Of a DNA stretch of 31,901 nt, positions 6,664 through 31,901 are shown in pieces (positions within the stretch are counted from its first letter, which is position 1; every line of letters begins with the position of its first letter). A program made the position numbers and the translations under genes. This DNA is from a virus (taxonomy: Duplodnaviria > Heunggongvirae > Uroviricota > Caudoviricetes): IMG/VR virus record IMGVR_UViG_2537561827_000016; one strand, given 5' to 3'. The notes below the pieces were generated by a model that was not told the origin of the DNA, searched no databases, and saw only the letters and a list, made by a program, of their open reading frames with translations.

Positions 6664-7608
6664 ATGCCAACAGTAGTTTCACTTTTTTCTGGATGCGGTG
6701 GTTCCGATGCGGGGGTTTTGAGAGCCGGCTTTGATGTGCTTATGGCCAACGATATCTTGCCGTATGCGCGCGATGTTTATATTGCCAATCATCCAGAAAC
6801 TGATTACATATTAGGCAATATTGCTGATGTAACTACTTTTCCTAAATCTGATTTGCTGGTAGGTTGTTATCCATGTCAGGGATTCAGCCAGGGTGGTGCG
6901 CGTAAAGCCGATCGAAAAATTAATACTCTTTATTTAGAGTTTGCTAGAGCTTTAAACAATATAAAGCCTAAAGCTTTTATAGTAGAAAACGTGTCTGGTA
7001 TGGTTAGAAAAAATTTTGAGCATTTGTTATCTGACCAGATCAGGGTTTTTACTGAAGCAGGTTATACTGTTTCCGCAAAAGTTTTAAATGCGGCTGAATA
7101 TGGAGTAGCGCAGGAAAGAAAAAGAATATTTATCGTAGGAATCCGTAATGATTTCAAAGTTAAGTACGAGTTCCCTCAGCCAACTCATGGGCCAGCAACT
7201 GGCGTCAACTATGTTACTATTAAAGATGCTATAGGGCATTTACCTGAATGGCCAGAAGGGGAATTTTATGATATGGGATTCCATTGGTATTATATGTCTC
7301 GCAATCGTCGCCAGGATTGGGATCAAATTTCAAAGACAATAGTTGCTAATGCAAGGCATATGCCGTTGCATCCTGTCAGTCCTCCGATGGAGAAAGTAAG
7401 AACTGATGAATGGAGATTTGTTGAGGATCGGAGAGCTCGCAGATTCAGTTTTCGAGAGGCAGCACTATTACAAGGGTTTGAGGATCTAGTGTTTCCAGAA
7501 ACAAATGCTGCAAGTCTTGGCATGAAATACACGGTGGTTGGTAATGCAGTGCCTCCGCCGCTTTTTGAAGCTGTAACGAAGGCATTGCCAATAGAATTAT
7601 GGGATTGA
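6664..7608 (+). CDS. DNA (cytosine-5)-methyltransferase
   Basis: Canonical C5-MTase motifs in order: FSGCGG (I, AdoMet binding), PCQGFS (IV, catalytic Cys), ENV (VI), QERKRIF (VIII), REAALLQGF (IX) and GNAVPPPLF (X). AGGAGGGG RBS upstream; TATAAT at 6633-6638. Confidence 0.9.
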   Translation: MPTVVSLFSGCGGSDAGVLRAGFDVLMANDILPYARDVYIANHPETDYILGNIADVTTFPKSDLLVGCYPCQGFSQGGARKADRKINTLYLEFARALNNIKPKAFIVENVSGMVRKNFEHLLSDQIRVFTEAGYTVSAKVLNAAEYGVAQERKRIFIVGIRNDFKVKYEFPQPTHGPATGVNYVTIKDAIGHLPEWPEGEFYDMGFHWYYMSRNRRQDWDQISKTIVANARHMPLHPVSPPMEKVRTDEWRFVEDRRARRFSFREAALLQGFEDLVFPETNAASLGMKYTVVGNAVPPPLFEAVTKALPIELWD

Positions 7609-7615
7609 TAAGCTA

Positions 7616-8605
7616 TTAAGGCTCTGGATTTAATGTATAAAGCTCTTCCTCAAATTCGCGAAACCAATCAGAGGTAGTTATCGCTTCCCATTGGTTTGCC
7701 TTATCAAGTAGATATATGATTCTCAACCTATCTAATAATAATACCCCAGCGGTTGCGTGTGTGCTTACCCATTCGCCATTTGCTTCCCGATAGAAAACAG
7801 GCGTGAACATTGTTGATGGATGCTGGAACGCAATTTGGAAATAGGTGGTCAGTTTTAACACGTTAGCCTCTAATGTTTTGCTTGGCCACCCTGTTTCTTG
7901 TGCACCACATTGACCAAGAATTCCATAGTTGCTAGTTTGACCATCAGGAAATTCCACTGTAGCAATTAGGTCAAACCCGGCATCACCAGATGTGGGAGCT
8001 CTATTTATTTCCCTTGTGTTTAAACTACAAACTCCAAGATCTTTTCCTAAAGTTTGTAGAGCTGTCCGAAGATTTGTTCCATAATAATTTTGCCTATCAT
8101 CGGAGTTAGCATCAAAAATTCTTACGGTGCCATGTGCAGGTAAGAGAGAAATCATTGCTACTTTACATACTCTGGCAAAGCTCTTTGCCCAACGTTGTGC
8201 TGCTCCTTTAATCGACTTAAAGGATCTAAGTCTAGAGCAGCAAAGAAGAAAAACATATATTCGTTGTTGTTGGTTTAGATTTTCTTTAATAATTATCTCA
8301 TCACCTGAAATTATAAATGGATATATTTTTCCAAGAGCACTTTCTCTATATTCGAGTTGTGTCCAAACATCTTCGAGTTGCTCTTCAAAACGATCATTTC
8401 TCTCAGCGTCTCCATTAATTTCTTCTTCAGAATTACATTCTTCATCAATTTCTTCAACGCTTGTTATGCCGAATTTTCTTACTGAATCTAAATCATTTTT
8501 ATGTAGTGAGTTACGTCCGGTATAATTAATTACCGTGAGTAACTCGGCTAAATCTGCAAACAAATGAGGAGAGTTGGGATGCATAACTCCTACTTCAAAA
8601 GTCAT
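7616..8605 (-). CDS. Hypothetical protein; candidate effector (possible restriction endonuclease) convergent with the MTase
   Basis: About 329-aa ORF ending 7 bp from the MTase stop, tail-to-tail; overlaps the upstream ParB-like gene by about 11 nt. Acidic cluster EEIDEECNSEEEINGDAERNDRFEEQLED. No family recognised by eye. Start chosen at ATG 8605 after the GAGG RBS; 8608 is an alternative. Confidence 0.6.
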   Translation of the reverse strand: MTFEVGVMHPNSPHLFADLAELLTVINYTGRNSLHKNDLDSVRKFGITSVEEIDEECNSEEEINGDAERNDRFEEQLEDVWTQLEYRESALGKIYPFIISGDEIIIKENLNQQQRIYVFLLCCSRLRSFKSIKGAAQRWAKSFARVCKVAMISLLPAHGTVRIFDANSDDRQNYYGTNLRTALQTLGKDLGVCSLNTREINRAPTSGDAGFDLIATVEFPDGQTSNYGILGQCGAQETGWPSKTLEANVLKLTTYFQIAFQHPSTMFTPVFYREANGEWVSTHATAGVLLLDRLRIIYLLDKANQWEAITTSDWFREFEEELYTLNPEP

Positions 8606-9716
8606 CATCACCTCTGCTATTTTTCTCTGCTATTTCAGAACCTATAAGCTTAATATGTTTATTGATTCTTCGTGCTACTTCATGGGCCTGTCTATCATAC
8701 TCTACCGTGGCAACCATGCCTGCTGCATCTATCAAAGCTGCTTCAACTTGATAAAGTAACTGGAGAAAGTCCTTAGTAATATCAGATGTCAATTGATAGG
8801 CAACTGCGAGTGGAGCCCCCATTCGGAATTGCTCCAATGCCTTAGGGCTACTTACAACAGCAGCTAGTTCTCTTAAATTACGTGATTCTCCTACACGAGT
8901 TTTTTTATCCTCGCCTTTTTTATATAACCATTCAGTTAGTTCTTTTATTTCTTTGTTCTTTAAACTCTTAGAATTGATGATAGGATGACTTGGTATTGTG
9001 TCTCCATCGTCTTCGATTGAAACTCCGACAAACTGGCCTAACCGCTCATCAGCAAGTGCTGTTGATAATACTGAAAATTTAATCGTTTCTTCATCTAGCT
9101 TTTCAATACCATAAAAATCATTTTTTTTAATGATTTCATACACCGCTAAAGCGTCTAGGTTACGCTTGATATGATCCCTACGACTGCCAATAGCTCTGGC
9201 AACCTCATAGTAGCGTAGCATTGGATCCAGATTTGCATTGGTATAATCAAAAAGCTGTTTAATATATCGAGCTTTTGATAAGGGTTCCCATTGTTTGACA
9301 CCAGTAATATGTCTGAAACCAAGGTACGGAAGAATCTCTTCTCTTGTTTGGCGCTCAATGACAGGAACACGATCGACCGTATGTTTTGCATTTGATGCAA
9401 TTTCTCGTAGTCGAGCACTTGGATTTTCACATAGTGTCGGATCGCGGAATAATTTGACCGCGGATAGGCGACGGTTTCCTTCAACTACAATGTACTTCCC
9501 CGGCGCTCCACTATCAGGAATGACAATCAATGGTTCTCCAGGGAAAAAACCATTTTCCGCAATAGCACTCATTAAGTCTTCGATAGATGTTGAGGTTGCT
9601 ATGTAGTTAATCATTCCCAATTGGTCACGAGACACGCCTTCAGGAAGTCTTGGGTTTTCTGTGTCAAGTTCCAAATCATCTAGCGGAACATAAAGTATTT
9701 CTGAATCAGCAATCAT
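8595..9716 (-). CDS. ParB/Srx-like nuclease-domain protein
   Basis: N-terminal region ILYVPLDDLELDTENPRLP ... PLIVIPDSGAPGKYIVVEGNRRLSAVKL resembles the ParB N-terminal fold (PNPxQPR-like box followed by a GxRRxxA box). C-terminal roughly 230 aa unassigned. First ATG at 9716 with GGAG RBS; the ORF track's TTG start at 9755 is not preferred. Confidence 0.7.
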   Translation of the reverse strand: MIADSEILYVPLDDLELDTENPRLPEGVSRDQLGMINYIATSTSIEDLMSAIAENGFFPGEPLIVIPDSGAPGKYIVVEGNRRLSAVKLFRDPTLCENPSARLREIASNAKHTVDRVPVIERQTREEILPYLGFRHITGVKQWEPLSKARYIKQLFDYTNANLDPMLRYYEVARAIGSRRDHIKRNLDALAVYEIIKKNDFYGIEKLDEETIKFSVLSTALADERLGQFVGVSIEDDGDTIPSHPIINSKSLKNKEIKELTEWLYKKGEDKKTRVGESRNLRELAAVVSSPKALEQFRMGAPLAVAYQLTSDITKDFLQLLYQVEAALIDAAGMVATVEYDRQAHEVARRINKHIKLIGSEIAEKNSRGDDDF

Positions 9717-9942
9717 CTGGATCTCCGTTGAACATGTCCACGAGAAGGAGCACAAAGTTATTTCATAACATGCAATATACTCATTCTGTAGCCATAAATG
9801 AATTATTCATGATGTAAGATTCGCGTTGATGTGCGTGAATTCGCAAGTAATTATACAGCAAGGTTTGATTGGGTATCGTCAGCACCAGTGCGGTTCCAAC
9901 GTACTCATGCAACTGCATTAAAACCGCCCCATGAAGCGGGCG

Positions 9943-21276: not shown

Positions 21277-21880
21277 TTCGCGACTGCTGCCGACCGGCTC
21301 ATCACCGCTTGAAATTGCTGCCGCAAAAGCCTGTGCGGAAATTGAAAAAACGCCGGTCAGTATTCGTGAGCTGTGGAACCCGGACACCTGCCCGGCAAAT
21401 CTGCTGCCGTGGCTGGCGTGGGCCTTTTCGGTCGACAGGTGGGATGAAAAGTGGCCGGAAGCGACAAAACGCGCCGTTATCCGCGATGCCTATTTCATCC
21501 ACTGTCATAAGGGTACTGTCGGCGCAATCCGGCGTGTTGTGGAGCCGCTCGGCTATCTGATTGAAGTGAGGGAGTGGTGGCAGCTCAACGAGGAGCCGGG
21601 GACGTTCCGTATCGTTGTTGGCGTGCTTGAGCAGGGTATTACCGAAGAAATGTATCTGGAGCTGGAACGTCTCGTTGCTGATGCAAAACCGGCGAGCCGC
21701 CATCTGACGGGACTGGCTATCAGTTTAAGTACAACCGGCAACATTTTTGCCGGAACGGGATGCTATCACGGTGACGCCCTGACGGTTTATCCCTACACCC
21801 CGGAGGCCATTATTGTCGGAGGGGATTATTTCCCGGCCTCGGTCATTCATTTAATTGATAACCTGAGAGTAAACGCATGA
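21269..21880 (+). CDS. I: Baseplate protein I
   Basis: ORF overlapping J end and H start; P2 gpI position. Exact start uncertain. Confidence 0.82.
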   Translation: MSDSRLLPTGSSPLEIAAAKACAEIEKTPVSIRELWNPDTCPANLLPWLAWAFSVDRWDEKWPEATKRAVIRDAYFIHCHKGTVGAIRRVVEPLGYLIEVREWWQLNEEPGTFRIVVGVLEQGITEEMYLELERLVADAKPASRHLTGLAISLSTTGNIFAGTGCYHGDALTVYPYTPEAIIVGGDYFPASVIHLIDNLRVNA

Positions 21881-22596
21881 CAGTGAAATACTACGCCATT
21901 CTGACTAATCAGGGCGCAGCACGACTGGCTAACGCGACGATGCTCGGCAGTAAGCTGAATCTGACGCAAATGGCCGTTGGTGATGCGAATGGTGTATTAC
22001 CGACACCAGACCCGGCACAGACAAAACTGATTAACCAGAAACGCATTGCACCGCTGAATCTTCTGAGTGTTGACCCTAACAATCAGAGCCAGATTATTGC
22101 GGAGCAAATTATCCCTGAAAACGAGGGAGGATTCTGGATCCGTGAGATTGGGCTTTATGATGATGAAGGCGTACTCATTGCGGTGGCGAACTGCCCGGAA
22201 ACGTACAAACCGCAGTTGCAGGAAGGCAGTGGTCGTACCCAGACTATCCGCATGATTCTGGTTGTCTCGAATACCGAAGCCATCACGCTGAAAATCGACC
22301 CGTCGGTAGTACTGGCGACCCGTAAATATGTGGATGACAAAATCTCAGAACACGAACATTCACGACGACACCCGGATGCATCGCTGACCGCAAAAGGTTT
22401 TACTCAGTTAAGCAGCGCAACCAACAGCACGTCTGAAACACTGGCCGCAACGCCGAGAGCGGTAAAGGTCGCGTATGACTTGCTAACGGGAAATATACCG
22501 CACAGGACGCGACCACAGCGCGAAAAGGTCTTGTCCAGCTCAGTAGCGCCACCAATAGCACTTCTGAAACGCTGGCCGCAACACCGAAAGCGGTGA
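21877..22596 (+). CDS. H: Tail fibre protein H, N-terminal fragment (gene interrupted by apparent frameshift)
   Basis: N-terminal region with the conserved GFTQLSSATNSTSETLAATPRAVKVAYDL motif of P2-type tail fibres; reading frame is lost near 22480 and runs to a stop at 22596. Confidence 0.8.
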   Translation: MTVKYYAILTNQGAARLANATMLGSKLNLTQMAVGDANGVLPTPDPAQTKLINQKRIAPLNLLSVDPNNQSQIIAEQIIPENEGGFWIREIGLYDDEGVLIAVANCPETYKPQLQEGSGRTQTIRMILVVSNTEAITLKIDPSVVLATRKYVDDKISEHEHSRRHPDASLTAKGFTQLSSATNSTSETLAATPRAVKVAYDLLTGNIPHRTRPQREKVLSSSVAPPIALLKRWPQHRKR

Positions 22597-23777
22597 AGTC
22601 TGCCTATGACAATGCTGAAAAACGTCTTCAGAAAGATCAGAACGGCGCGGATATTCCTGATAAAAGATTATTCCTGCGCAATATTGGAGCAACAAATTCA
22701 ACAACCATGTCTTTTAGTGGTGGTACAGGATGGTTCAGGCTGGCAACTGTAACCATGCCACAGGCCAGTTCCGTGGTTTACATAAGTCTGATTGGTGGTT
22801 CTGGATATAATGTTAACTCCCCTATGCAGGCTGGTATATCTGAACTTGTTCTTCGTGCGGGAAATGGGAATCCAAAAGGTCTTACTGGTGCGTTATGGCG
22901 ACGGACATCGGTTGGATTTACTAATTTTGCATGGGTGAATACATCCGGTGATACCTATGATGTTTATGTTGAAATAGGTAATTACACCACACGTGTTAAT
23001 ATTCAGTGGGATTATACCAGTAACGCCAGCGTAACGATTCATACATCACCATCTTATACAGCGAATAAACCAACAGGCCTGACAGATGGAACTGTATATG
23101 TAATTTACAGTTCACATATTAAACCTACTGCTGCTGACCTTGGCTTGAGCGATGCAAGTGGATACGTGGGACGCTTGGTGAATACCCGGGTTTTCACGTC
23201 ATCAGGTACGTACACCCCGACGCCAGGAACAAAACGGATTAGGGTCACAATAACGGGCGGCGGTGGCGGAGGGGGCGGCTGCAAGGCTATATCCAATAAT
23301 GAAACGTTTTTCGGTGCTGGCGGTGGGGCCGGTGGAACAATAATTTCAATAATGACCCCGATACAGAATAGTTATCCAGTCACTATCGGCGCAGGTGGGG
23401 CCGGTGGTGTTAGTGCGACGAACGGCACCAGTGGCGGGAATAGCGTATTCGCATCGTTAATTGCTCCTGGTGGCGCAGGTGGCGGGAAAGTGGGAATTAC
23501 AAACACAAACGGCGGTAACGGAGGTGTGCCGAGTACTGGCGATATCCGCATCACTGGTGGAAATGGAGGCGACGGTCAGTCCGGAAATATCAGCGTCAGT
23601 GGTGAAGGCGGAACATCGTACTGGGGTGGCGGTGGACGCGCAGGCGCTGGCGGTGGCGTTAGCGGTAAGGCATATGGTTCAGGCGGAGGTGGTGCATACG
23701 ATGCCGGTTATAGCGGAACCAGTATGACAGGCGGGAAAGGTGCCGCTGGGATTTGTATTATCGAGGAGTTTGCATAA
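22593..23777 (+). CDS. H: Tail fibre protein H, C-terminal fragment with Gly-rich distal domain
   Basis: Coordinates follow the ORF track (GTG at 22593). The same frame is open from 22479 and encodes LANGKYTAQDATTARKGLVQLSSATNSTSETLAATPKAVKSAYD, continuing the H motif. C-terminus is glycine-rich, including an eight-glycine run. Confidence 0.75.
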   Translation: MKSAYDNAEKRLQKDQNGADIPDKRLFLRNIGATNSTTMSFSGGTGWFRLATVTMPQASSVVYISLIGGSGYNVNSPMQAGISELVLRAGNGNPKGLTGALWRRTSVGFTNFAWVNTSGDTYDVYVEIGNYTTRVNIQWDYTSNASVTIHTSPSYTANKPTGLTDGTVYVIYSSHIKPTAADLGLSDASGYVGRLVNTRVFTSSGTYTPTPGTKRIRVTITGGGGGGGGCKAISNNETFFGAGGGAGGTIISIMTPIQNSYPVTIGAGGAGGVSATNGTSGGNSVFASLIAPGGAGGGKVGITNTNGGNGGVPSTGDIRITGGNGGDGQSGNISVSGEGGTSYWGGGGRAGAGGGVSGKAYGSGGGGAYDAGYSGTSMTGGKGAAGICIIEEFA

Positions 23778-24187
23778 TGAATGCGTCATATGCAGTTATT
23801 GAAAATGGGATGGTTGTGAATGTCATTGTCTGGGATGGCGAGGCTGAATTCACAGTGCCGGATAATCAGCAGCTCATTGATATTTCTGATATCAGTGAGC
23901 ATCCCGGAATCGGCTGGGGGTATTCAGACGGGGTATTTACTGCGCCGCTCCCTCCGGAACGTTCTCATGATGAACTGGTAGCTGACGCTGAACAGAAAAA
24001 ACAGTCGCTGATAGACGCAGCAATGGCCAATATCAGCGTGATTCAGTTAAAGCTGCAGGCCGGGCGCAAACTGACGCAAGAAGAAACTACCCGACTTAAC
24101 GTTGTGCTGGATTATATCGACGCTGTGACGGCAACAGATACCAGCACCGCACCGGATGTCATCTGGCCTGAACTGCAGGAGGCGTAG
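23777..24187 (+). CDS. G: Tail fibre assembly chaperone (G/Tfa-like)
   Basis: 136 aa from ATG 23777, overlapping the H stop (TAATG). The acidic C-terminus ending in PDVIWPELQEA is of the kind seen at Tfa chaperone C-termini; N-terminus diverged. Confidence 0.7.
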   Translation: MNASYAVIENGMVVNVIVWDGEAEFTVPDNQQLIDISDISEHPGIGWGYSDGVFTAPLPPERSHDELVADAEQKKQSLIDAAMANISVIQLKLQAGRKLTQEETTRLNVVLDYIDAVTATDTSTAPDVIWPELQEA

Positions 24188-24393
24188 GCCATTCAATATC
24201 TGACGTACCGGAAGTATCGGACCGCTCCGGTGCGTACAGGTAATCCAGCCACAAATTATATTGCGCCAGTACCTCAGACCTGCCGGGCTATTGCTTACTG
24301 TTCATGTATTTATTGGCCTGATTAATCAGTAGCTGTCTTTCTGGTCGTGTGGATCCTGCAAATCCTGAATGGTCGGAAATACCGCAATAAATA

Positions 24394-24421
24394 CAGGCGG
24401 GCTGATTGCCCGCCTTTTTTA
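24394..24421 (+). terminator. Rho-independent terminator after G
   Basis: Hairpin GGCGGG-ctgattg-CCCGCC followed by TTTTTTAT. Confidence 0.6.
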
Positions 24422-24517
24422 TCTGTTGTTTCATCCCCTGACCAGCCAGGTCAAATAGCATCTCATGCCCTGCACAACTGAAAATACCACTCACCCATTA
24501 ACCACGGAGTTAAACGG

Positions 24518-25708
24518 ATGAGTGACTATCATCACGGCGTGCAGGTGCTGGAGATTAACGACGGCACCCGCGTCATTTCCACCGTATCCACGGCCATTGT
24601 CGGCATGGTCTGCACGGCCAGCGATGCAGATGCGGAAACCTTCCCCCTCAATAAACCGGTGCTGATTACCAATGTGCAGAGCGCAATTGCGAAGGCCGGT
24701 AAAAAAGGCACGCTGGCGGCATCGTTACAGGCCATCGCCGACCAGTCAAAACCGGTCACCGTTGTCGTGCGTGTGGAAGACGGCACCGGCGAAGACGAAG
24801 AAACGAAACTCGCGCAGACCGTTTCCAATATCATCGGCACCACCGACGAAAACGGTCAGTACACCGGACTGAAAGCCCTGCTGGCGGCGGAGTCGGTAAC
24901 CGGTGTAAAACCGCGTATTCTCGGCGTGCCGGGACTGGATACCAAAGAGGTGGCTGTTGCACTGGCATCAGTCTGTCAGAAGCTGCGCGCTTTCGGGTAT
25001 ATCAGCGCATGGGGCTGTAAAACCATTTCCGAGGTGAAAGCCTACCGTCAGAATTTCAGCCAGCGTGAGCTGATGGTCATCTGGCCGGATTTCCTCGCAT
25101 GGGATACGGTCACCAGTACCACCGCCACCGCGTATGCCACCGCCCGTGCACTGGGGCTGCGCGCTAAAATCGACCAGGAGCAGGGCTGGCATAAAACGCT
25201 GTCCAACGTCGGGGTAAACGGTGTTACCGGCATCAGCGCATCTGTATTCTGGGATTTGCAGGAGTCCGGCACCGATGCTGACCTGCTTAACGAGTCAGGT
25301 GTCACTACGCTGATTCGCCGCGACGGTTTCCGCTTCTGGGGTAACCGTACCTGCTCTGATGACCCGCTGTTCCTCTTTGAAAACTACACCCGCACTGCGC
25401 AGGTGCTGGCCGACACGATGGCTGAGGCGCACATGTGGGCTGTGGATAAGCCCATCACCGCAACGCTGATTCGCGACATCGTTGACGGCATCAATGCCAA
25501 ATTCCGTGAGCTGAAAACAAACGGCTATATCGTGGATGCGACCTGCTGGTTCAGCGAAGAATCCAACGATGCGGAAACCCTCAAGGCCGGAAAACTGTAT
25601 ATCGACTACGACTATACCCCGGTGCCTCCTCTTGAAAACCTGACCCTGCGCCAGCGTATTACCGATAAATACCTGGCAAATCTGGTCACCTCGGTTAACA
25701 GCAATTAA
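24518..25708 (+). CDS. FI: Tail sheath protein
   Basis: 396 aa, same size as P2 gpFI; preceded by a GGAG-like RBS. Confidence 0.93.
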   Translation: MSDYHHGVQVLEINDGTRVISTVSTAIVGMVCTASDADAETFPLNKPVLITNVQSAIAKAGKKGTLAASLQAIADQSKPVTVVVRVEDGTGEDEETKLAQTVSNIIGTTDENGQYTGLKALLAAESVTGVKPRILGVPGLDTKEVAVALASVCQKLRAFGYISAWGCKTISEVKAYRQNFSQRELMVIWPDFLAWDTVTSTTATAYATARALGLRAKIDQEQGWHKTLSNVGVNGVTGISASVFWDLQESGTDADLLNESGVTTLIRRDGFRFWGNRTCSDDPLFLFENYTRTAQVLADTMAEAHMWAVDKPITATLIRDIVDGINAKFRELKTNGYIVDATCWFSEESNDAETLKAGKLYIDYDYTPVPPLENLTLRQRITDKYLANLVTSVNSN

Positions 25709-25720
25709 GGAGCCTGACCG

Positions 25721-26239
25721 ATGGCAATGCCGCGCAAACTCAAGTTAATGAACGTCTTTCTGAACGGCTACAGCTATCAGGGCGTCGCGAAGTCCGTCAC
25801 GCTACCAAAACTGACCCGTAAGCTCGAAAACTATCGCGGTGCGGGAATGAACGGCAGCGCACCGGTAGACCTCGGCCTTGATGACGATGCGCTGTCAATG
25901 GAGTGGTCGCTCGGTGGCTTCCCGGATTCGGTTATCTGGGAGCTTTACGCCGCAACCGGTGTGGATGCCGTGCCGATTCGTTTTGCAGGCTCTTACCAGC
26001 GCGACGATACCGGCGAAACGGTGGCCGTCGAAGTGGTCATGCGTGGACGTCAGAAAGAAATCGACACCGGCGAGGGTAAACAGGGAGAAGACACTGAGTC
26101 GAAAATCTCCGTGGTCTGCACCTATTTCCGGCTGACGATGGACGGTAAGGAGCTGGTCGAAATTGACACCATCAACATGATTGAGAAGGTGAACGGCGTC
26201 GACCGGCTGGAGCAACACCGCCGCAATATCGGCCTGTGA
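25721..26239 (+). CDS. FII: Tail tube protein
   Basis: 172 aa, same size as P2 gpFII. Confidence 0.93.
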   Translation: MAMPRKLKLMNVFLNGYSYQGVAKSVTLPKLTRKLENYRGAGMNGSAPVDLGLDDDALSMEWSLGGFPDSVIWELYAATGVDAVPIRFAGSYQRDDTGETVAVEVVMRGRQKEIDTGEGKQGEDTESKISVVCTYFRLTMDGKELVEIDTINMIEKVNGVDRLEQHRRNIGL

Positions 26240-26295
26240 TTTTCATCCGGTCAGCCTGGCTGGCCGGTTAACCCTGATTCAGAAGTGAGAAAACC

Positions 26296-26571
26296 ATGAA
26301 CAAAGAAAATGTCATTACCCTGGACAATCCGGTCAAGCGTGGTGAGCAGGTTATCGAACAGGTCACGCTGATGAAACCCAATGCCGGGACGCTGCGCGGT
26401 GTCAGTCTGGCTGCGGTCGCAAACTCCGAAGTCGATGCACTGATTAAAGTGCTGCCGCGCATGACGGCACCGATGCTGACCGAGCAGGAGGTCGCCGCGC
26501 TGGAACTGCCTGACCTTGTGGCACTGGCCGGTAAGGTGGTCGGTTTTTTGTCGCCGAACTCGGTGCAGTAA
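26296..26571 (+). CDS. E: Tail assembly chaperone E
   Basis: 91 aa, P2 gpE size; contains slippery T-TTT-TTG at 26544-26550 near its 3' end. Confidence 0.85.
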   Translation: MNKENVITLDNPVKRGEQVIEQVTLMKPNAGTLRGVSLAAVANSEVDALIKVLPRMTAPMLTEQEVAALELPDLVALAGKVVGFLSPNSVQ

Positions 26572-26723
26572 CGTTTCCGAAAAATCTCTCGGTCGATGAC
26601 CTGATGGCGGATGTGGCAGTGATATTTCACTGGCCGCCATCAGAACTGTATCCCATGAGCCTGACCGAACTCATCACATGGCGCGAAAAGGCGCTCCGGC
26701 GAAGCGGAAACACGAATGAGTAA
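26296..26723 (+). CDS. E': Tail assembly chaperone E+E' (programmed -1 frameshift product)
   Basis: From the slippery heptamer at 26544-26550 the -1 frame is open to TAA at 26721-26723, giving about 142 aa in total (P2 E+E' size); ends overlapping the T start. Confidence 0.7.
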
Positions 26724-29163
26724 CAATGTAAAATTACAGGTATTGCTCAGGGCTGTTGACCAGGCATCCCGCCCGTTTAAATCCATCCGTACAGCGAGCA
26801 AGTCGCTGTCGGGGGATATCCGGGAAACACAAAAATCACTGCGCGAGCTGAACGGTCAGGTATCCCGTATTGAGGGATTCCGTAAGACCAGCGCACAGCT
26901 TGCCGTAACTGGTCATGCACTTGAAAAGGCACGGCAGGAGGCCGAAGCCCTTGCCACACAGTTTAAAAACACCGAACGACCGACCCGTGCTCAGGCGAAA
27001 GTGCTGGAATCCGCAAAGCGTGCGGCGGAGGACTTACAGGCGAAATATAACCGCCTGACGGATTCCGTTAAACGCCAGCAGCGGGAACTGGCCGCTGTGG
27101 GAATTAATACCCGCAATCTTGCACATGATGAGCAGGGACTGAAAAACCGTATCAGTGAAACCATCGCACAACTTAACCGTCAGCGTGACGCGCTGGCGCG
27201 TGTCAGTGCGCAACAGGCCAAACTTAACGCAGTCAAACAGCGTTATCAGGCCGGAAAGGAACTGGCCGGAAATATGGCCTCAGTGGGCGCTGCCGGTGTG
27301 GGGATTGCGGCGGCGGGAACGATGGCCGGAGTTAAGTTGCTGATGCCCGGTTATGAGTTTGCGCAGAAAAACTCAGAATTGCAGGCCGTGCTCGGAGTGG
27401 CAAAAGACTCCGCCGAAATGACCGCACTACGCAAACAGGCGCGCCAGCTCGGCGACAATACCGCCGCCTCGGCGGATGATGCGGTCGGTGCACAGATAAT
27501 CATCGCGAAAGCGGGTGGGGATGTTGATGCCATTCAGGCGGCAACGCCGGTCACGCTGAATATGGCGCTGGCGAATCAGCGGTCGATGGAAGAAAACGCG
27601 CAACTGTTGCTGGGGACTAAGGCATCCTTTCAACTGTCAAATGATGATGTCAGCCATGTGGGCGACGTGTTGTCGGCAACGATGAATAAGTCGGCGGCTG
27701 ATTTTCAGGGACTCAGTGATGCACTGACTTACCTCGGTCCGGTCGCAAGAACGGCAGGTGTAAGTCTTGAGCAGGCAGCAGCCATGACCGGTGTGCTGCA
27801 TGACAATAACATCAGGGGGTCAATGGCGGGTACGGGTAGTAGTGCCGTTGTCACCCGATTACAGGCTCCGACTGGAAAAGCATGGGATGCACTCAAAGAG
27901 CTTGGCGTTAAAACCTCGGACAAAAAGGGAAATATGCGTCCGTTGTTCACCATTCTGAAAGAGATTCAGGCCAGCTTTGATAAACACAAGCTGGGAACGT
28001 CTCAGAAGGGGGAATACCTTAAAACCATTTTTGGTGAGGAAGCCCTGAAATCAGCGAACGTTTTACTGGCAGCGGCAGCAAGCGGAAAACTGGATACGCT
28101 GACCGCCACGCTGAAAGCCTCGGACAGTAAAACGGAAGAGCTGGTTAAAATCATGCAGGATAACCTCGGCGGTGACTTTAAGGAGTTTCAGTCCGCTTAT
28201 GAGGCTGTGGGGACTGACCTGTTTGACCAGCAGGAAGGCGCGCTGCGTAAGCTCACGCAGACGGCCACAAAGTATGTGTTAAAACTCGACGGCTGGATAC
28301 AGAAAAACAAATCACTGGCGTCAACCATCGGCCTCATTGCCGGCGGTGCACTGGCGCTGACTGGCATCATCGGTGCCATTGGCCTTGTAGCCTGGCCGGT
28401 TATCACCGGCATCAATGCCATTATCGCGGCAGCAGGCGCAATGGGGGCAATCTTCACGACGGTTGGTAGTGCCGTTATGACGGCCATCGGTGCGATTAGC
28501 TGGCCGGTTGTGGCCGTGGTGGCTGCCATTGTCGCCGGGGCGTTGCTTATCCGTAAATACTGGGAGCCTGTCAGCGCATTCTTTGGCGGTGTGGTTGAAG
28601 GGCTGAAAGCGGCATTTGCGCCGGTGGGGGAGCTGTTCACGCCACTTAAGCCGGTGTTTGACTGGCTGGGCGAAAAGTTACAGGCCGCGTGGCAGTGGTT
28701 TACAAACCTGATTGCTCCGGTTAAAGCCACACAGGACACCCTGAACCGTTGCCGTGACACGGGCGTCATGTTCGGGCAGGCACTGGCTGACGCGCTGATG
28801 CTGCCGCTTAATGCGTTCAACAAACTGCGCAGCGGTATTGACTGGGTACTGGAAAAACTCGGTGTTATCAACAAAGAGTCAGACACACTTGACCAGACCG
28901 CCGCCAGAACTCATGCCGCCACGTATGGCACCGGTGGTTATATTCCGGCGACCAGCTCTTATGCAGGCTATCAGGCTTATCAGCCGGTCACGGCACCGGC
29001 TGGCCGCTCTTATGTGGACCAGAGTAAAAACGAATATCACATCAGCCTGACGGGTGGTACTGCGCCGGGGACACAGCTTGACCGCCAGTTACAGGATGCG
29101 CTCGAAAAATACGAGCGGGATAAACGTGCGCGCGCCCGTGCCAGCATGATGCATGACGGTTAA
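26716..29163 (+). CDS. T: Tail tape measure protein
   Basis: 815 aa, same as P2 gpT; coiled-coil N-terminal half, Gly/Ala-rich hydrophobic region. Confidence 0.93.
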   Translation: MSNNVKLQVLLRAVDQASRPFKSIRTASKSLSGDIRETQKSLRELNGQVSRIEGFRKTSAQLAVTGHALEKARQEAEALATQFKNTERPTRAQAKVLESAKRAAEDLQAKYNRLTDSVKRQQRELAAVGINTRNLAHDEQGLKNRISETIAQLNRQRDALARVSAQQAKLNAVKQRYQAGKELAGNMASVGAAGVGIAAAGTMAGVKLLMPGYEFAQKNSELQAVLGVAKDSAEMTALRKQARQLGDNTAASADDAVGAQIIIAKAGGDVDAIQAATPVTLNMALANQRSMEENAQLLLGTKASFQLSNDDVSHVGDVLSATMNKSAADFQGLSDALTYLGPVARTAGVSLEQAAAMTGVLHDNNIRGSMAGTGSSAVVTRLQAPTGKAWDALKELGVKTSDKKGNMRPLFTILKEIQASFDKHKLGTSQKGEYLKTIFGEEALKSANVLLAAAASGKLDTLTATLKASDSKTEELVKIMQDNLGGDFKEFQSAYEAVGTDLFDQQEGALRKLTQTATKYVLKLDGWIQKNKSLASTIGLIAGGALALTGIIGAIGLVAWPVITGINAIIAAAGAMGAIFTTVGSAVMTAIGAISWPVVAVVAAIVAGALLIRKYWEPVSAFFGGVVEGLKAAFAPVGELFTPLKPVFDWLGEKLQAAWQWFTNLIAPVKATQDTLNRCRDTGVMFGQALADALMLPLNAFNKLRSGIDWVLEKLGVINKESDTLDQTAARTHAATYGTGGYIPATSSYAGYQAYQPVTAPAGRSYVDQSKNEYHISLTGGTAPGTQLDRQLQDALEKYERDKRARARASMMHDG

Positions 29164-29177
29164 GGAGGTGACGAAAA

Positions 29178-29657
29178 ATGATGCTCGCGTTAGGTATGTT
29201 TGTTTTTATGCGCCAGACGCTGCCACACCAGACCATGCAGCGTGAATCAGATTATCGCTGGCCGTCAAATTCCCGTATCGGTAAACGGGAGGCCTACCAG
29301 TTTCTCGGTGTGGGTGAGGAAAACATGACGCTTGCCGGTGTGCTTTATCCCGAACTGACCGGCGGAAAGCTGACGATGACCACGCTCAGGCTGATGGCAG
29401 ATGAAGGCCGGGCGTGGCCGTTGCTGGATGGCACTGGCATGATTTACGGCATGTATGTCATCAGCAAGGTGAGTGAAACAGGGAGTATTTTCTTTGCAGA
29501 CGGCACACCCCGAAAAATTGATTTTACGCTGTCGCTCACCCGCGTTGACGAATCACTGGCCGCGCTTTATGGCGATATCGGTAAACAGGCGGAATCGCTC
29601 ATCGGTAAGGCTGGCAGTATGGCGACCAGATTCACGGGTATGACGGGGGCGGGATAA
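29178..29657 (+). CDS. U: Tail protein U
   Basis: 159 aa, P2 gpU size and position. Confidence 0.9.
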   Translation: MMLALGMFVFMRQTLPHQTMQRESDYRWPSNSRIGKREAYQFLGVGEENMTLAGVLYPELTGGKLTMTTLRLMADEGRAWPLLDGTGMIYGMYVISKVSETGSIFFADGTPRKIDFTLSLTRVDESLAALYGDIGKQAESLIGKAGSMATRFTGMTGAG

Positions 29658-30820
29658 TGCTGGATGCGCTGACATTTGATGCAGGCAGTACGCTGACGCC
29701 GGATTACATGCTGATGCTCGACAGCAGGGATATTACCGGCAATATCAGCGACCGTCTGATGAGCATGACCCTGACGGATAACCGGGGCTTTGAGGCTGAC
29801 CAGCTTGATATTGAACTGAACGATGCCGACGGGCAGGTCGGGCTGCCGATTCGTGGCGCTGTCCTGACGGTGTATATCGGCTGGAAAGGCTTTGCCCTGG
29901 TATGCAAAGGGAAATTTACCGTTGATGAGGTTGAACACCGGGGCGCACCGGATGTGGTCACCATCCGTGCCCGGAGTGCAGATTTTCGTGGGACGCTCAA
30001 TTCCCGCCGGGAAGGCTCCTGGCATGACACCACGCTCGGTGCGATTGTTGAGGCGATAGCCTCCCGTAACAGGCTGGAAGCCAGTGTCGCTCCGTCACTG
30101 GCCGGAATTAAAATCCCGCACATCGACCAGTCGCAGGAGTCTGATGTGAAATTCCTGACCCGTCTTGCTGAACGCAACGGCGGCGAGGTGTCGGTAAAAA
30201 TGGGAAAACTGCTGTTTCTCAAAGCAGGGCAGGGGGTGACGGCCAGCGGTAAAAAAATCCCGCAGATTACCATCACCCGCAGCGACGGCGACCGCCATCA
30301 TTTTGCGATTGCTGACCGTGGAGCCTATACCGGCGTAACGGCAAAGTGGTTACACACCAAAGACCCGAAGCCACAAAAGCAGAAGGTAAAACTGAAACGC
30401 AAAAAGAAAGAGAAACACCTGCGCGCACTGGAGCACCCGAAAGCGAAACCAGTCACGCAGAAGAAAGCGTCAAAAGTACCGGAAGCGCGCGAAGGTGAAT
30501 ACATGGCAGGTGAGGCTGACAACGTTTTTGCCCTGACCACGGTATATGCCACGAAAGCGCAGGCCATGCGCGCCGCTCAGGCGAAGTGGGACAAACTGCA
30601 ACGGGGCGTCGCGGAGTTCTCCATCAGCCTTGCCACTGGTCGTGCTGATATTTACACGGAAACACCGGTCAGAGTGTCAGGCTTTAAGCGCGTCATAGAC
30701 GAGCAGGACTGGACAATCACTAAGGTGACACATTTTCTGAATAATAGCGGCTTCACGACGTCCTTAGAGCTTGAGGTCAGGCTTTCTGATGTGGAGTACG
30801 AAACAGAAGATGATGATTAA
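29657..30820 (+). CDS. D: Tail protein D (late control gene D family)
   Basis: 387 aa, P2 gpD size and position. Confidence 0.9.
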   Translation: MLDALTFDAGSTLTPDYMLMLDSRDITGNISDRLMSMTLTDNRGFEADQLDIELNDADGQVGLPIRGAVLTVYIGWKGFALVCKGKFTVDEVEHRGAPDVVTIRARSADFRGTLNSRREGSWHDTTLGAIVEAIASRNRLEASVAPSLAGIKIPHIDQSQESDVKFLTRLAERNGGEVSVKMGKLLFLKAGQGVTASGKKIPQITITRSDGDRHHFAIADRGAYTGVTAKWLHTKDPKPQKQKVKLKRKKKEKHLRALEHPKAKPVTQKKASKVPEAREGEYMAGEADNVFALTTVYATKAQAMRAAQAKWDKLQRGVAEFSISLATGRADIYTETPVRVSGFKRVIDEQDWTITKVTHFLNNSGFTTSLELEVRLSDVEYETEDDD

Positions 30821-30900
30821 TGTTTTGTTTTATCTGTTTGTTTTATAAGGATAAATTAAATAAAATGGCACCATTAACAAAACCGGAAGAGGTGCTCGCG

Positions 30901-31119
30901 ATGTTTCATTGTCCTTTATGCCAGCATGCCGCACATGCGCGTACAAGTCGCTATATCACTGACACGACAAAAGAGCGTTATCACCAGTGCCAGAACGTGA
31001 ATTGCAGCGCTACGTTCATCACTTATGAGTCGGTACAGCGATACATCGTGAAGCCGGGAGAAGTCCACGCCGTGAGGCCGCACCCGTTGCCGTCAGGGCA
31101 GCAAATTATGTGGATGTAA
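30901..31119 (+). CDS. ogr: Late-gene transcriptional activator Ogr (C4 zinc finger)
   Basis: 72 aa from ATG 30901 (MFHCPLCQHAAHARTSRYITDTTKERYHQCQNVNC...); CxxC-N22-CxxxxC zinc-finger pattern and length match P2 Ogr. Confidence 0.9.
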   Translation: MFHCPLCQHAAHARTSRYITDTTKERYHQCQNVNCSATFITYESVQRYIVKPGEVHAVRPHPLPSGQQIMWM

Positions 31120-31129
31120 TTACAAACAG

Positions 31130-31160
31130 AAAGCCCCTCAGTCGAGGGGCTTTCTGTTTT
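31130..31160 (+). terminator. Rho-independent terminator after ogr
   Basis: Hairpin AAAGCCCCTC-agtc-GAGGGGCTTT followed by CTGTTTT. Confidence 0.7.
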
Positions 31161-31259
31161 GGGGAATATTCTTCATTAAAAGTAGTGGATCACGTTTAAT
31201 AAACTATGTTTATCATATACTTAAAAGTAACTTTTTAAAGTTGGACAGGTTGGTGGAAA

Positions 31260-31901
31260 ATGGAAAAAGTTATAATTGAGCTTGATAATCGTTGGGAGTT
31301 AGCTGATTTCGCGGTCTTAACGAAAGAGTATTTGCAGCTATATGGTTTTTTTTATGGCCTAAAAGGAGGATCAAGAGGATATTCAACAATGCCTTGGGAG
31401 GGTGGGCACAGTGTAGTGAACTTTTTTAGAGGGGCTTACAGTGCGACTCCACCAGATTTACGTCCTGTAGTGAAAAAAATTCAGTATGCCTCTCCTGGCT
31501 TTATTGAATTGTCTGCTCTTATTGATATCTCTTGGCAGATTGCTGAGTTAGTTACTGCTGTTGGTGGAAGTATTCTGGCTGCCAACAAAGTTTACGATCA
31601 GGTGATGCGTACATATCGACAAAGAGAATGGGCAAAGTTGAAATCAGAGAAGCTGCGTATACAGAATCAAATTAAAGAGATTGAACTTGTTTCTGACGCA
31701 GTTAAATCACTTGAATCTGTGATGGCACTTAGTGAAGAACAACGTAAAAACTTGGTTCAACTATCGGGGGCAGATGAACTGGTTCAGTTAAAGATACTTT
31801 TGGCTGTTTACCGACGGTTATCTCCTCTTGTTGAGTTGCAAAACAGCGGGAAAGCTAATTTTTCTGCAGGGAAAAATAAAAATTTAAAAGCGTCCGATTA
31901 A
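31260..31901 (+). CDS. Hypothetical protein, AT-rich, C-terminal coiled-coil-like region
   Basis: 213-aa ORF with complete stop at 31899-31901, preceded by an AT-rich intergenic region. Not the fieF gene that follows cpxP in E. coli K-12. No recognised domain. Confidence 0.55.
   Translation: MEKVIIELDNRWELADFAVLTKEYLQLYGFFYGLKGGSRGYSTMPWEGGHSVVNFFRGAYSATPPDLRPVVKKIQYASPGFIELSALIDISWQIAELVTAVGGSILAANKVYDQVMRTYRQREWAKLKSEKLRIQNQIKEIELVSDAVKSLESVMALSEEQRKNLVQLSGADELVQLKILLAVYRRLSPLVELQNSGKANFSAGKNKNLKASD

What the first reader, a model, noticed from the sequence alone, without database searches (positions are those of the whole stretch)
22394..22610. Tail-fibre gene H interrupted by an apparent 1-nt frameshift within a duplicated 84-bp motif
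H is read in two frames. Frame 1 ends AYDLLTGNIPHRTRPQ... stop, while the adjacent frame from 22479 reads LANGKYTAQDATTARKGLVQLSSATNSTSETLAATPKAVKSAYD, the expected continuation. One missing base at about 22480-22483 (gacttgctaacggg) would restore a single H ORF of about 633 aa. The break lies between two copies of the QLSSATNSTSETLAATP(R/K)AVK repeat (22396-22479 and 22527-22610). It could be a sequencing or assembly error, an inactivating mutation in a cryptic prophage, or recoding.
Basis: seen in the sequence. Interest (0 to 1): 0.55.

Follow-up and report, generated by a model that had tools for sequence, protein, structure and literature searches.

The report
Assembly artefact in prophage tail-fibre gene
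The broken tail-fibre gene is almost certainly a draft-assembly error: short reads could not resolve a 132-base tandem repeat, so two repeat units and one extra base were lost, and the real gene is most likely an ordinary intact one.

Summary
P2-type tail-fibre gene H is split at 22479/22480 between two copies of a 44-codon repeat that lie 131 nt apart instead of 132. Adding one base gives a 633-aa ORF.

The break is almost certainly not biological. The window is contig APYT01000068.1 of the draft genome of E. coli P0301867.11. Complete genomes of four ETEC strains carry essentially the same prophage. Two were aligned base by base. They differ from the window at only 10-11 bases outside the repeat, and both have an intact 721-aa H with four 132-nt units. 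The window lacks 265 nt (2x132+1).

- The lost base sits at a column where the units differ (T versus C).
- Sibling drafts of the same isolate series show different H states: intact with 3 units, or with bases missing at other unit-discordant columns.
- Another draft, whose isolate name follows the same convention, lacks six bases, all at discordant columns.
- An independent draft has an N at such a column.
- The frameshifted junction occurs in no other assembly searched; the intact junction is common.
- The window's other private differences are mostly GGT to GGG.

Recoding and prophage decay are not supported. Interest is low.

The parts
21877..22596 (+). 5' part of tail-fibre gene H as it stands in the assembly. 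The 239-aa ORF comprises the N-terminal tail-collar fibre domain, repeat unit 1, then 38 out-of-frame codons and a stop.
   Evidence: PF12571, PF03406. The first 201 aa are identical to the 721-aa allele P0001.
22392..22479 (+). Core of repeat unit 1 (KGFTQLSSATNSTSETLAATPRAVKVAYD), a Phage_fiber_2 repeat.
22479..22480 (+). Site of the missing base: TATGA^CTTGC. Unit 1 of the complete relatives has TATGATCTTGC and units 2 and 3 have TATGACCTTGC. Two whole 132-nt units are also absent here relative to strains 504239 and 67-1.
22523..22610 (+). Core of the second repeat unit in the window. It is chimeric: the start is as in units 2 and 3 of the relatives (GGTC, CAGTAGC) and the rest is as in unit 4 (AATAGCACT...AAGTCTGCCTATGAC).
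22479..23777 (+). 3' part of H in the other frame (433 codons): spacer, last repeat unit, shaft, and the glycine-rich C-terminal domain (PF21722).
   Evidence: From 22545 to the window end the DNA is identical to strain 504239.
23777..24187 (+). Tail-fibre assembly (chaperone) gene, 136 aa. Its ATG overlaps the H stop codon.
   Evidence: PF02413, E 1.9e-20

Best explanation
The frameshift is an artefact of a short-read draft assembly. The real prophage most likely carries an intact P2-type H gene with four tandem 132-nt (44-codon) Phage_fiber_2 units, giving 721 aa. Two of those units differ from each other by a single base. Reads of about 100 nt with 300-bp inserts cannot place such units. 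An overlap-consensus assembler therefore stacked reads from different units on top of each other, collapsing four units into two. At a column where the stacked units disagree (T in unit 1, C in units 2 and 3), the consensus step emitted no base. That produced the 131-nt spacing and the apparent frameshift.

Shown here: the window's difference from the complete relatives; the position of the missing base at a discordant column; the same kind of defect in sibling and other drafts; and the absence of this junction elsewhere.

Inferred: the exact behaviour of the assembler, and the true unit number in this isolate.
For: 1. Source. The exact 239-aa product exists in one assembly only, draft GCA_000357525.2, contig APYT01000068.1, E. 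coli P0301867.11. The window matches that contig.

2. Nearest relatives. Complete genomes of ETEC strains 504239 and 67-1 carry the same prophage between cpxP and fieF. Outside the repeat they differ from the window at 11 and 10 single bases with no indel, and the sequence is identical from 22545 to 31901. Their H genes are identical to each other, intact, 2166 nt, with four units. The window is 265 nt (2x132+1) shorter.

3. Position of the missing base. It lies at TATGA[T/C]CTTGC, one of only 3 variable columns among the 52 columns of that stretch in units 1-3. The window's units are chimeras of units 1, 2/3 and 4.

4. Sibling drafts of the P0301867 series disagree with one another.
- Isolate .4 has an intact 3-unit H of 677 aa. 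Two drafts with neighbouring WGS prefixes (APYV01, APYW01) carry the same 3-unit gene.
- The .3 product equals 3 units plus one base lost in GGT[A/T]AAG, the only column where units 2 and 3 differ.
- The .8 product equals the window sequence plus one more base lost at ATATAC[T/C].

5. Other drafts. The draft of P0304777.5, an isolate named in the same style, lacks six bases in this repeat, all at unit-discordant columns. This is seen directly in the DNA. An independent draft, BDOW01000001.1, has an N at GGT[N]AAG in a 3-unit gene, so it collapsed units 2 and 3.

6. Contig breaks. At least seven partial products of 208-278 aa are exact prefixes of the 721-aa allele and end inside the repeat. 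Other short-read assemblies apparently break there.

7. Absence elsewhere. The frameshifted junction has 0 hits in metagenome and viral contigs, against 13 and 17 for the intact junction. None of 5,426 complete E. coli genomes has it; the best match is 98%.

8. General error signature. Eight of the window's 11 differences from strain 504239 change T or A to G directly after GG, and a ninth changes T to G after CG. Six of the seven private differences of the two sibling drafts are GGT to GGG or ACC to CCC on the other strand, and the seventh is AGT to AGG.

9. Method. The study that matches these isolate names used HiSeq2000 paired ends with 300-bp inserts, Celera Assembler, and several colonies per patient (PMC4462620).
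Against: The raw reads could not be inspected, so a real private mutation in this colony is not formally excluded.

Tandem repeats do change copy number in nature. Related alleles with 1 to 6 units exist, and 3-unit and 4-unit genes occur in complete genomes.

Coverage in that project was reported as over 200x, so a simple low-coverage error is unlikely. The explanation needs the specific mechanism of repeat collapse.

The link between P0301867.11 and the published study rests on the naming convention, because its Table S1 is not held.
Confidence: 0.9

Rival explanations
1. This is a real, private mutation in this colony. Slipped-strand or unequal recombination within the tandem repeat removed units imprecisely (133 or 265 nt). 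H is truncated and the prophage cannot make functional tail fibres.
For: Unit number does vary among related alleles, with products of 589, 633, 677, 721, 765 and 809 aa. Repeats are deletion-prone, which is established knowledge. The sequence as deposited does carry the shift.
Against: The allele is found in a single draft assembly and nowhere else. Colonies of the same series show different defects. Each defect is compatible with loss of a base at a column where repeat units differ, a pattern expected from consensus calling but not from recombination or replication slippage. The same defect type occurs in the draft of another isolate named in the same style. The window's unit structure would need at least two separate events, one at only 11 nt of shared sequence. 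The assembly carries other systematic errors.
Confidence: 0.07
2. This is programmed recoding. The ribosome shifts by -1 at the junction to make full-length H from two frames, or the two ORFs are expressed as separate fibre pieces.
For: The only support is that both frames are open on either side of the junction.
Against: GCGTATGACTTGCTAACGGG contains no X XXY YYZ heptamer or homopolymer run. Every relative examined encodes H in one frame. The two-frame arrangement is not conserved in any other genome or metagenome. Programmed frameshifts are conserved features, which is established knowledge.
Confidence: 0.01
3. This is pseudogenisation in a decaying (cryptic) prophage.
For: An interrupted structural gene is typical of cryptic prophages.
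Against: All other P2 genes, from integrase through ogr, are present and intact. Outside the repeat the DNA differs from prophages of the complete genomes by 10-11 substitutions and no indel.
Confidence: 0.02

Closest known systems
Phage P2 gpH tail fibre (P2-like prophage H genes of E. coli)
   Same: Same gene order: J, I, H, tail-fibre assembly gene, FI. Same N-terminal tail-collar fibre domain (PF12571). Same 44-residue QLSSATNSTSETLAATPKAVK repeats (PF03406). The DNA is 90.8% identical to P2 H over the repeat region.
   Different: The C-terminal receptor-binding part is a glycine-rich domain (PF21722), unlike that of P2 H as I recall it (my recollection of the P2 sequence; one search matched P2 only over query bases 451-722). 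Repeat number is 4 in the closest complete relatives, against 2 in P2 as I recall it (not tested here). In this assembly the ORF is broken.
Collapsed tandem repeats in short-read draft assemblies
   Same: Loss of whole repeat units. Chimeric units. Defects confined to columns where the units differ. Different outcomes in replicate assemblies of the same clone. An N at the discordant column in another assembler's output. Contig breaks inside the repeat in other drafts.
   Different: Nothing observed contradicts this. The reads themselves were not available.
Programmed -1 frameshift in tail assembly chaperone genes (lambda G/GT, P2 E/E')
   Same: Two overlapping frames in a tail gene.
   Different: There is no slippery heptamer, no conservation of the two-frame layout, and relatives have a single ORF. 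The true E/E' pair of this prophage lies elsewhere, at about 26300-26720 (position converted from the annotation of strain 504239).

Membership tests
P2 gpH-type tail fibre | N-terminal tail-collar fibre domain (PF12571) | tested here: met
   records PF12571 on the window's 239-aa product. One search gives E 1.3e-62 on the 721-aa allele, whose first 201 aa are identical to the window's.
P2 gpH-type tail fibre | Phage_fiber_2 repeats (PF03406) | tested here: met
   There are 4 stretches in the 4-unit relative and two units in the window.
P2 gpH-type tail fibre | Position between gene I and a tail-fibre assembly gene in a P2 late operon | tested here: met
P2 gpH-type tail fibre | One continuous reading frame | tested here: not met
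   Not met in the window as deposited. Met in all close relatives. The failure is attributed to the assembly.
Programmed ribosomal frameshift | Slippery sequence at the shift site | tested here: not met
   GTATGACTTGCTAAC has no X XXY YYZ motif or homopolymer run.
Programmed ribosomal frameshift | Two-frame arrangement conserved among relatives | tested here: not met
   0 of 5,426 complete genomes, and 0 metagenome or viral contigs, carry the junction. The intact junction is found 30 times.
Repeat-collapse assembly artefact | Missing sequence equals whole repeat units relative to long-read genomes of the same element | tested here: met
   265 = 2x132+1 nt missing relative to strains 504239 and 67-1.
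Repeat-collapse assembly artefact | Errors located at columns where the repeat copies differ | tested here: met
   Seen in the window and in P0304777.5 DNA with six bases missing. Inferred from the products of P0301867.3 and .8, where the candidate positions of the lost base include the discordant column. N in BDOW01000001.1.
Repeat-collapse assembly artefact | Excess read depth and mixed bases over the collapsed repeat | not testable with these tools
   No access to the raw reads of GCA_000357525.
Decaying cryptic prophage | Several disrupted or missing essential genes | tested here: not met
   No other indel against intact relatives, and the full P2 gene set is present.

The most novel reading that the evidence does not exclude
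The shift is real in this colony. The 44-codon repeat of H would then be a hypermutable tract that changes unit number and frame at high frequency within a single infection, switching tail-fibre production of the prophage on and off among sibling cells.
Probability: 0.04. Interest if true: 0.35.

Novelty: not a real feature. Interest (0 to 1): 0.05.

Why it matters
It matters mainly as a caution. Broken tail-fibre genes in short-read drafts, here in the P0301867 and P0304777 isolate series, should not be read as pseudogenes, recoding or prophage decay. The repeat number of H cannot be taken from such assemblies either. The biology underneath is ordinary: an intact P2-like prophage of ETEC whose fibre shaft carries a variable number of 44-residue repeats.

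Tried and rejected
- Recoding: rejected, because there is no slippery site and no conservation.
- Cryptic-prophage decay: rejected, because there is no other indel and the full gene set is present.
- A single clean unequal crossover from the 4-unit allele: rejected. The window's units need two junctions, one in only 11 nt of identity, plus a 1-nt loss. My brute-force model of one contiguous block removed plus one deleted base did not reproduce the window's product, although it did reproduce the P0301867.3 product.
Their defects are therefore inferred from the protein sequences plus the known DNA.
- Literature: the strain name was not found in the paper library. The study's supplementary table is not held, so the link to that study rests on the naming convention.
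- A 100% match of the repaired 633-aa protein was sought and not found. The only 2-unit proteins (P0057, P0064) belong to a different allele and come from drafts named in the same style.

Full report
**Observation**

The window carries a P2-like prophage inserted between cpxP (1-501) and the fieF side, with the usual late operon. Gene H starts at 21877.
- In its starting frame it ends at 22596 after 239 codons. The last 38 codons (LLTGNIPHRTRPQREK...) are out of frame.
- The neighbouring frame is open from 22479 to 23777 and reads LANGKYTAQDATTARKGLVQLSSATNSTSETLAATPKAVKSAYD....
- The two repeat cores are 22392-22479 and 22523-22610, at 80% identity. Their start-to-start spacing is 131 nt, whereas intact relatives have 132.
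- Adding one base after 22479 gives a 633-aa ORF.

**Where the window comes from**

The exact 239-aa product is on record in a single assembly: draft GCA_000357525.2, contig APYT01000068.1 (56 kb). GenBank names it 'phage tail fiber repeat family protein [Escherichia coli P0301867.11]'. The window matches that contig.

**Closest relatives**

Four complete ETEC genomes (504239, 67-1, TW11681, WS1933D) match window 1-22610 at 99.9%. I aligned two of them base by base.
- Strain 504239 differs from the window at 11 single bases before the repeat and at none from 22545 to 31901. There is no indel outside the repeat.
- Strain 67-1, from another country and another assembly, shows 10 of the same 11 differences and has an identical H gene.
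- In both, H is intact at 2166 nt (721 aa), with four tandem 132-nt units.

The window is thus shorter by 265 nt, which is 2x132+1. A more distant allele in strain 600468 has three units and 677 aa.

**Anatomy of the defect**

In the 4-unit gene, unit 1 ends TATGATCTTGC and units 2 and 3 end TATGACCTTGC. The window has TATGA-CTTGC.
- The missing base therefore falls on a column where the units disagree. That is one of only 3 variable columns among the 52 columns of this stretch in units 1-3.
- The window's units are chimeric. The order is unit 1, then a spacer of the unit 2/3 type (ATATACC), then a unit start of the 2/3 type (GGTC, CAGTAGC), then the rest of unit 4.
- Deriving this from the 4-unit gene biologically needs two deletions, one through only 11 nt of identity, plus a 1-nt loss.

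**Replicate assemblies disagree, always at discordant columns**

The 90% cluster of the 239-aa product holds products from sibling isolates.
- P0301867.4 has an intact 3-unit H of 677 aa. Two drafts with neighbouring WGS prefixes (APYV01, APYW01) carry this 3-unit gene on the same prophage.
- The 283-aa product of P0301867.3 is reproduced by three units plus one base lost within GGT[A/T]AAG, the stretch that holds the only column where units 2 and 3 differ.
- The 222-aa product of P0301867.8 is reproduced by the window sequence plus one more base lost at 22497-22499, a range that includes the discordant column of ATATAC[T/C].
- The draft of P0304777.5, an isolate named in the same style, was checked directly in DNA. 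It lacks six bases in this repeat: three in AAAG[N]C[N]GC[N]TATGA, one in ATATAC[N]GCAC, one in AAAAGG[N]CTTG and one in CTCAG[N]AGC. All six are at unit-discordant columns. Its protein leaves the frame and returns to it.
- An independent draft, BDOW01000001.1, has three units with an N exactly at GGT[N]AAG. This shows that its three units are a collapse of four.
- At least seven 'partial' products of 208-278 aa are exact prefixes of the 721-aa allele and end inside the repeat. Other short-read assemblies apparently stop there.

Recombination or replication slippage has no reason to remove single bases precisely where repeat copies differ. A consensus step working on piled-up copies does.

**The junction is absent elsewhere**

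A 101-nt query across the junction finds no exact match in 5,426 complete E. coli genomes; the best match is 98%, in 493 genomes. The 31-nt frameshifted junction has 0 hits in metagenome contigs and 0 in viral contigs. The intact junction (GAYC) has 13 and 17 hits.

**General quality of the draft**

- Eight of the window's 11 differences from strain 504239 change T or A to G directly after GG, and a ninth changes T to G after CG. Strain 67-1 shares 10 of the 11 differences, including all nine of these.
- Six of the seven private differences of the two sibling drafts are GGT to GGG or ACC to CCC on the other strand, and the seventh is AGT to AGG.
- Some sites recur in one sibling but not another.

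This is a context-specific base-calling error pattern, not descent.

The study whose isolate names follow this convention sequenced several colonies per patient. It used HiSeq2000 paired ends with 300-bp inserts and assembled with Celera Assembler (PMC4462620). That P0301867.11 belongs to it is inferred from the name, because the supplementary table is not held.

**Conclusion**

The best explanation, at about 0.9, is a collapsed tandem repeat with a consensus gap at a discordant column. The real gene is most likely the intact 4-unit, 721-aa H. Three units cannot be excluded, because short reads cannot separate units 2 and 3.

**Rivals**

- A real private mutation: about 0.07.
- Decay of a cryptic prophage: about 0.02. 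There are no other lesions.
- Recoding: about 0.01. There is no slippery site and no conservation.

**What H is**

H has an N-terminal tail-collar fibre domain (PF12571), Phage_fiber_2 repeats (PF03406) and a C-terminal glycine-rich domain (PF21722). It is followed by a Caudo_TAP chaperone gene at 23777-24187.

**Verdict**

This is not a real feature, and interest is low. Its only value is as a warning about tail-fibre repeats in short-read drafts.

Noticed in passing
window 6664-9755: Cargo block between replication gene A and portal gene Q. It holds a C5 cytosine methylase at 6664-7608 (+) (PF00145; PADLOC DruM2/MTase_II-like), a 331-aa ORF with no family at 7616-8611 (-), and a 386-aa ParB-N-like ORF at 8595-9755 (-) that matches PADLOC PD-Lambda-5_A (E 4.9e-28). 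This is probably a PD-Lambda-5-like two-gene defence system, with a methylase, in the P2 variable region.
   Followed up: partly
window 31260-31901: A 213-aa ORF after ogr, at the prophage end next to fieF. It has no Pfam family but matches PADLOC PD-T4-10_B (E 1.3e-34). No partner gene was looked for.
   Followed up: partly
window about 24159-24371 (-) and 23837-24187 (+): On DNA identical to the window, RefSeq annotation of strains 504239 and 67-1 calls a reversed tail-fibre-assembly gene fragment with an internal stop just downstream of the forward chaperone gene. This may be a relic of an alternative or invertible fibre cassette. The same annotation calls the forward chaperone 'missing N-terminus', although an ATG-started 136-aa ORF (23777-24187) covers Caudo_TAP profile positions 25-129 of 131.
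   Followed up: no
window 1229, 4341, 5139, 7260, 9447, 10766, 12088, 19676: These are private G bases in the window. Seven follow GG and one follows CG. Two complete genomes have T or A at these sites. Two sibling drafts carry the same substitution type at their own private sites. This is a systematic GGT to GGG error signature of this draft series, and some of these bases would change codons.
   Followed up: yes
relatives of H (P0089, P0057, P0006, P0001, P0123, P0125): Related H proteins come with 1 to 6 of the 44-residue units: 589, 633, 677, 721, 765 and 809 aa. Three and four units are confirmed in complete genomes. The other counts are known here only from contigs of drafts, so the real extent of unit-number variation is uncertain.
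   Followed up: partly
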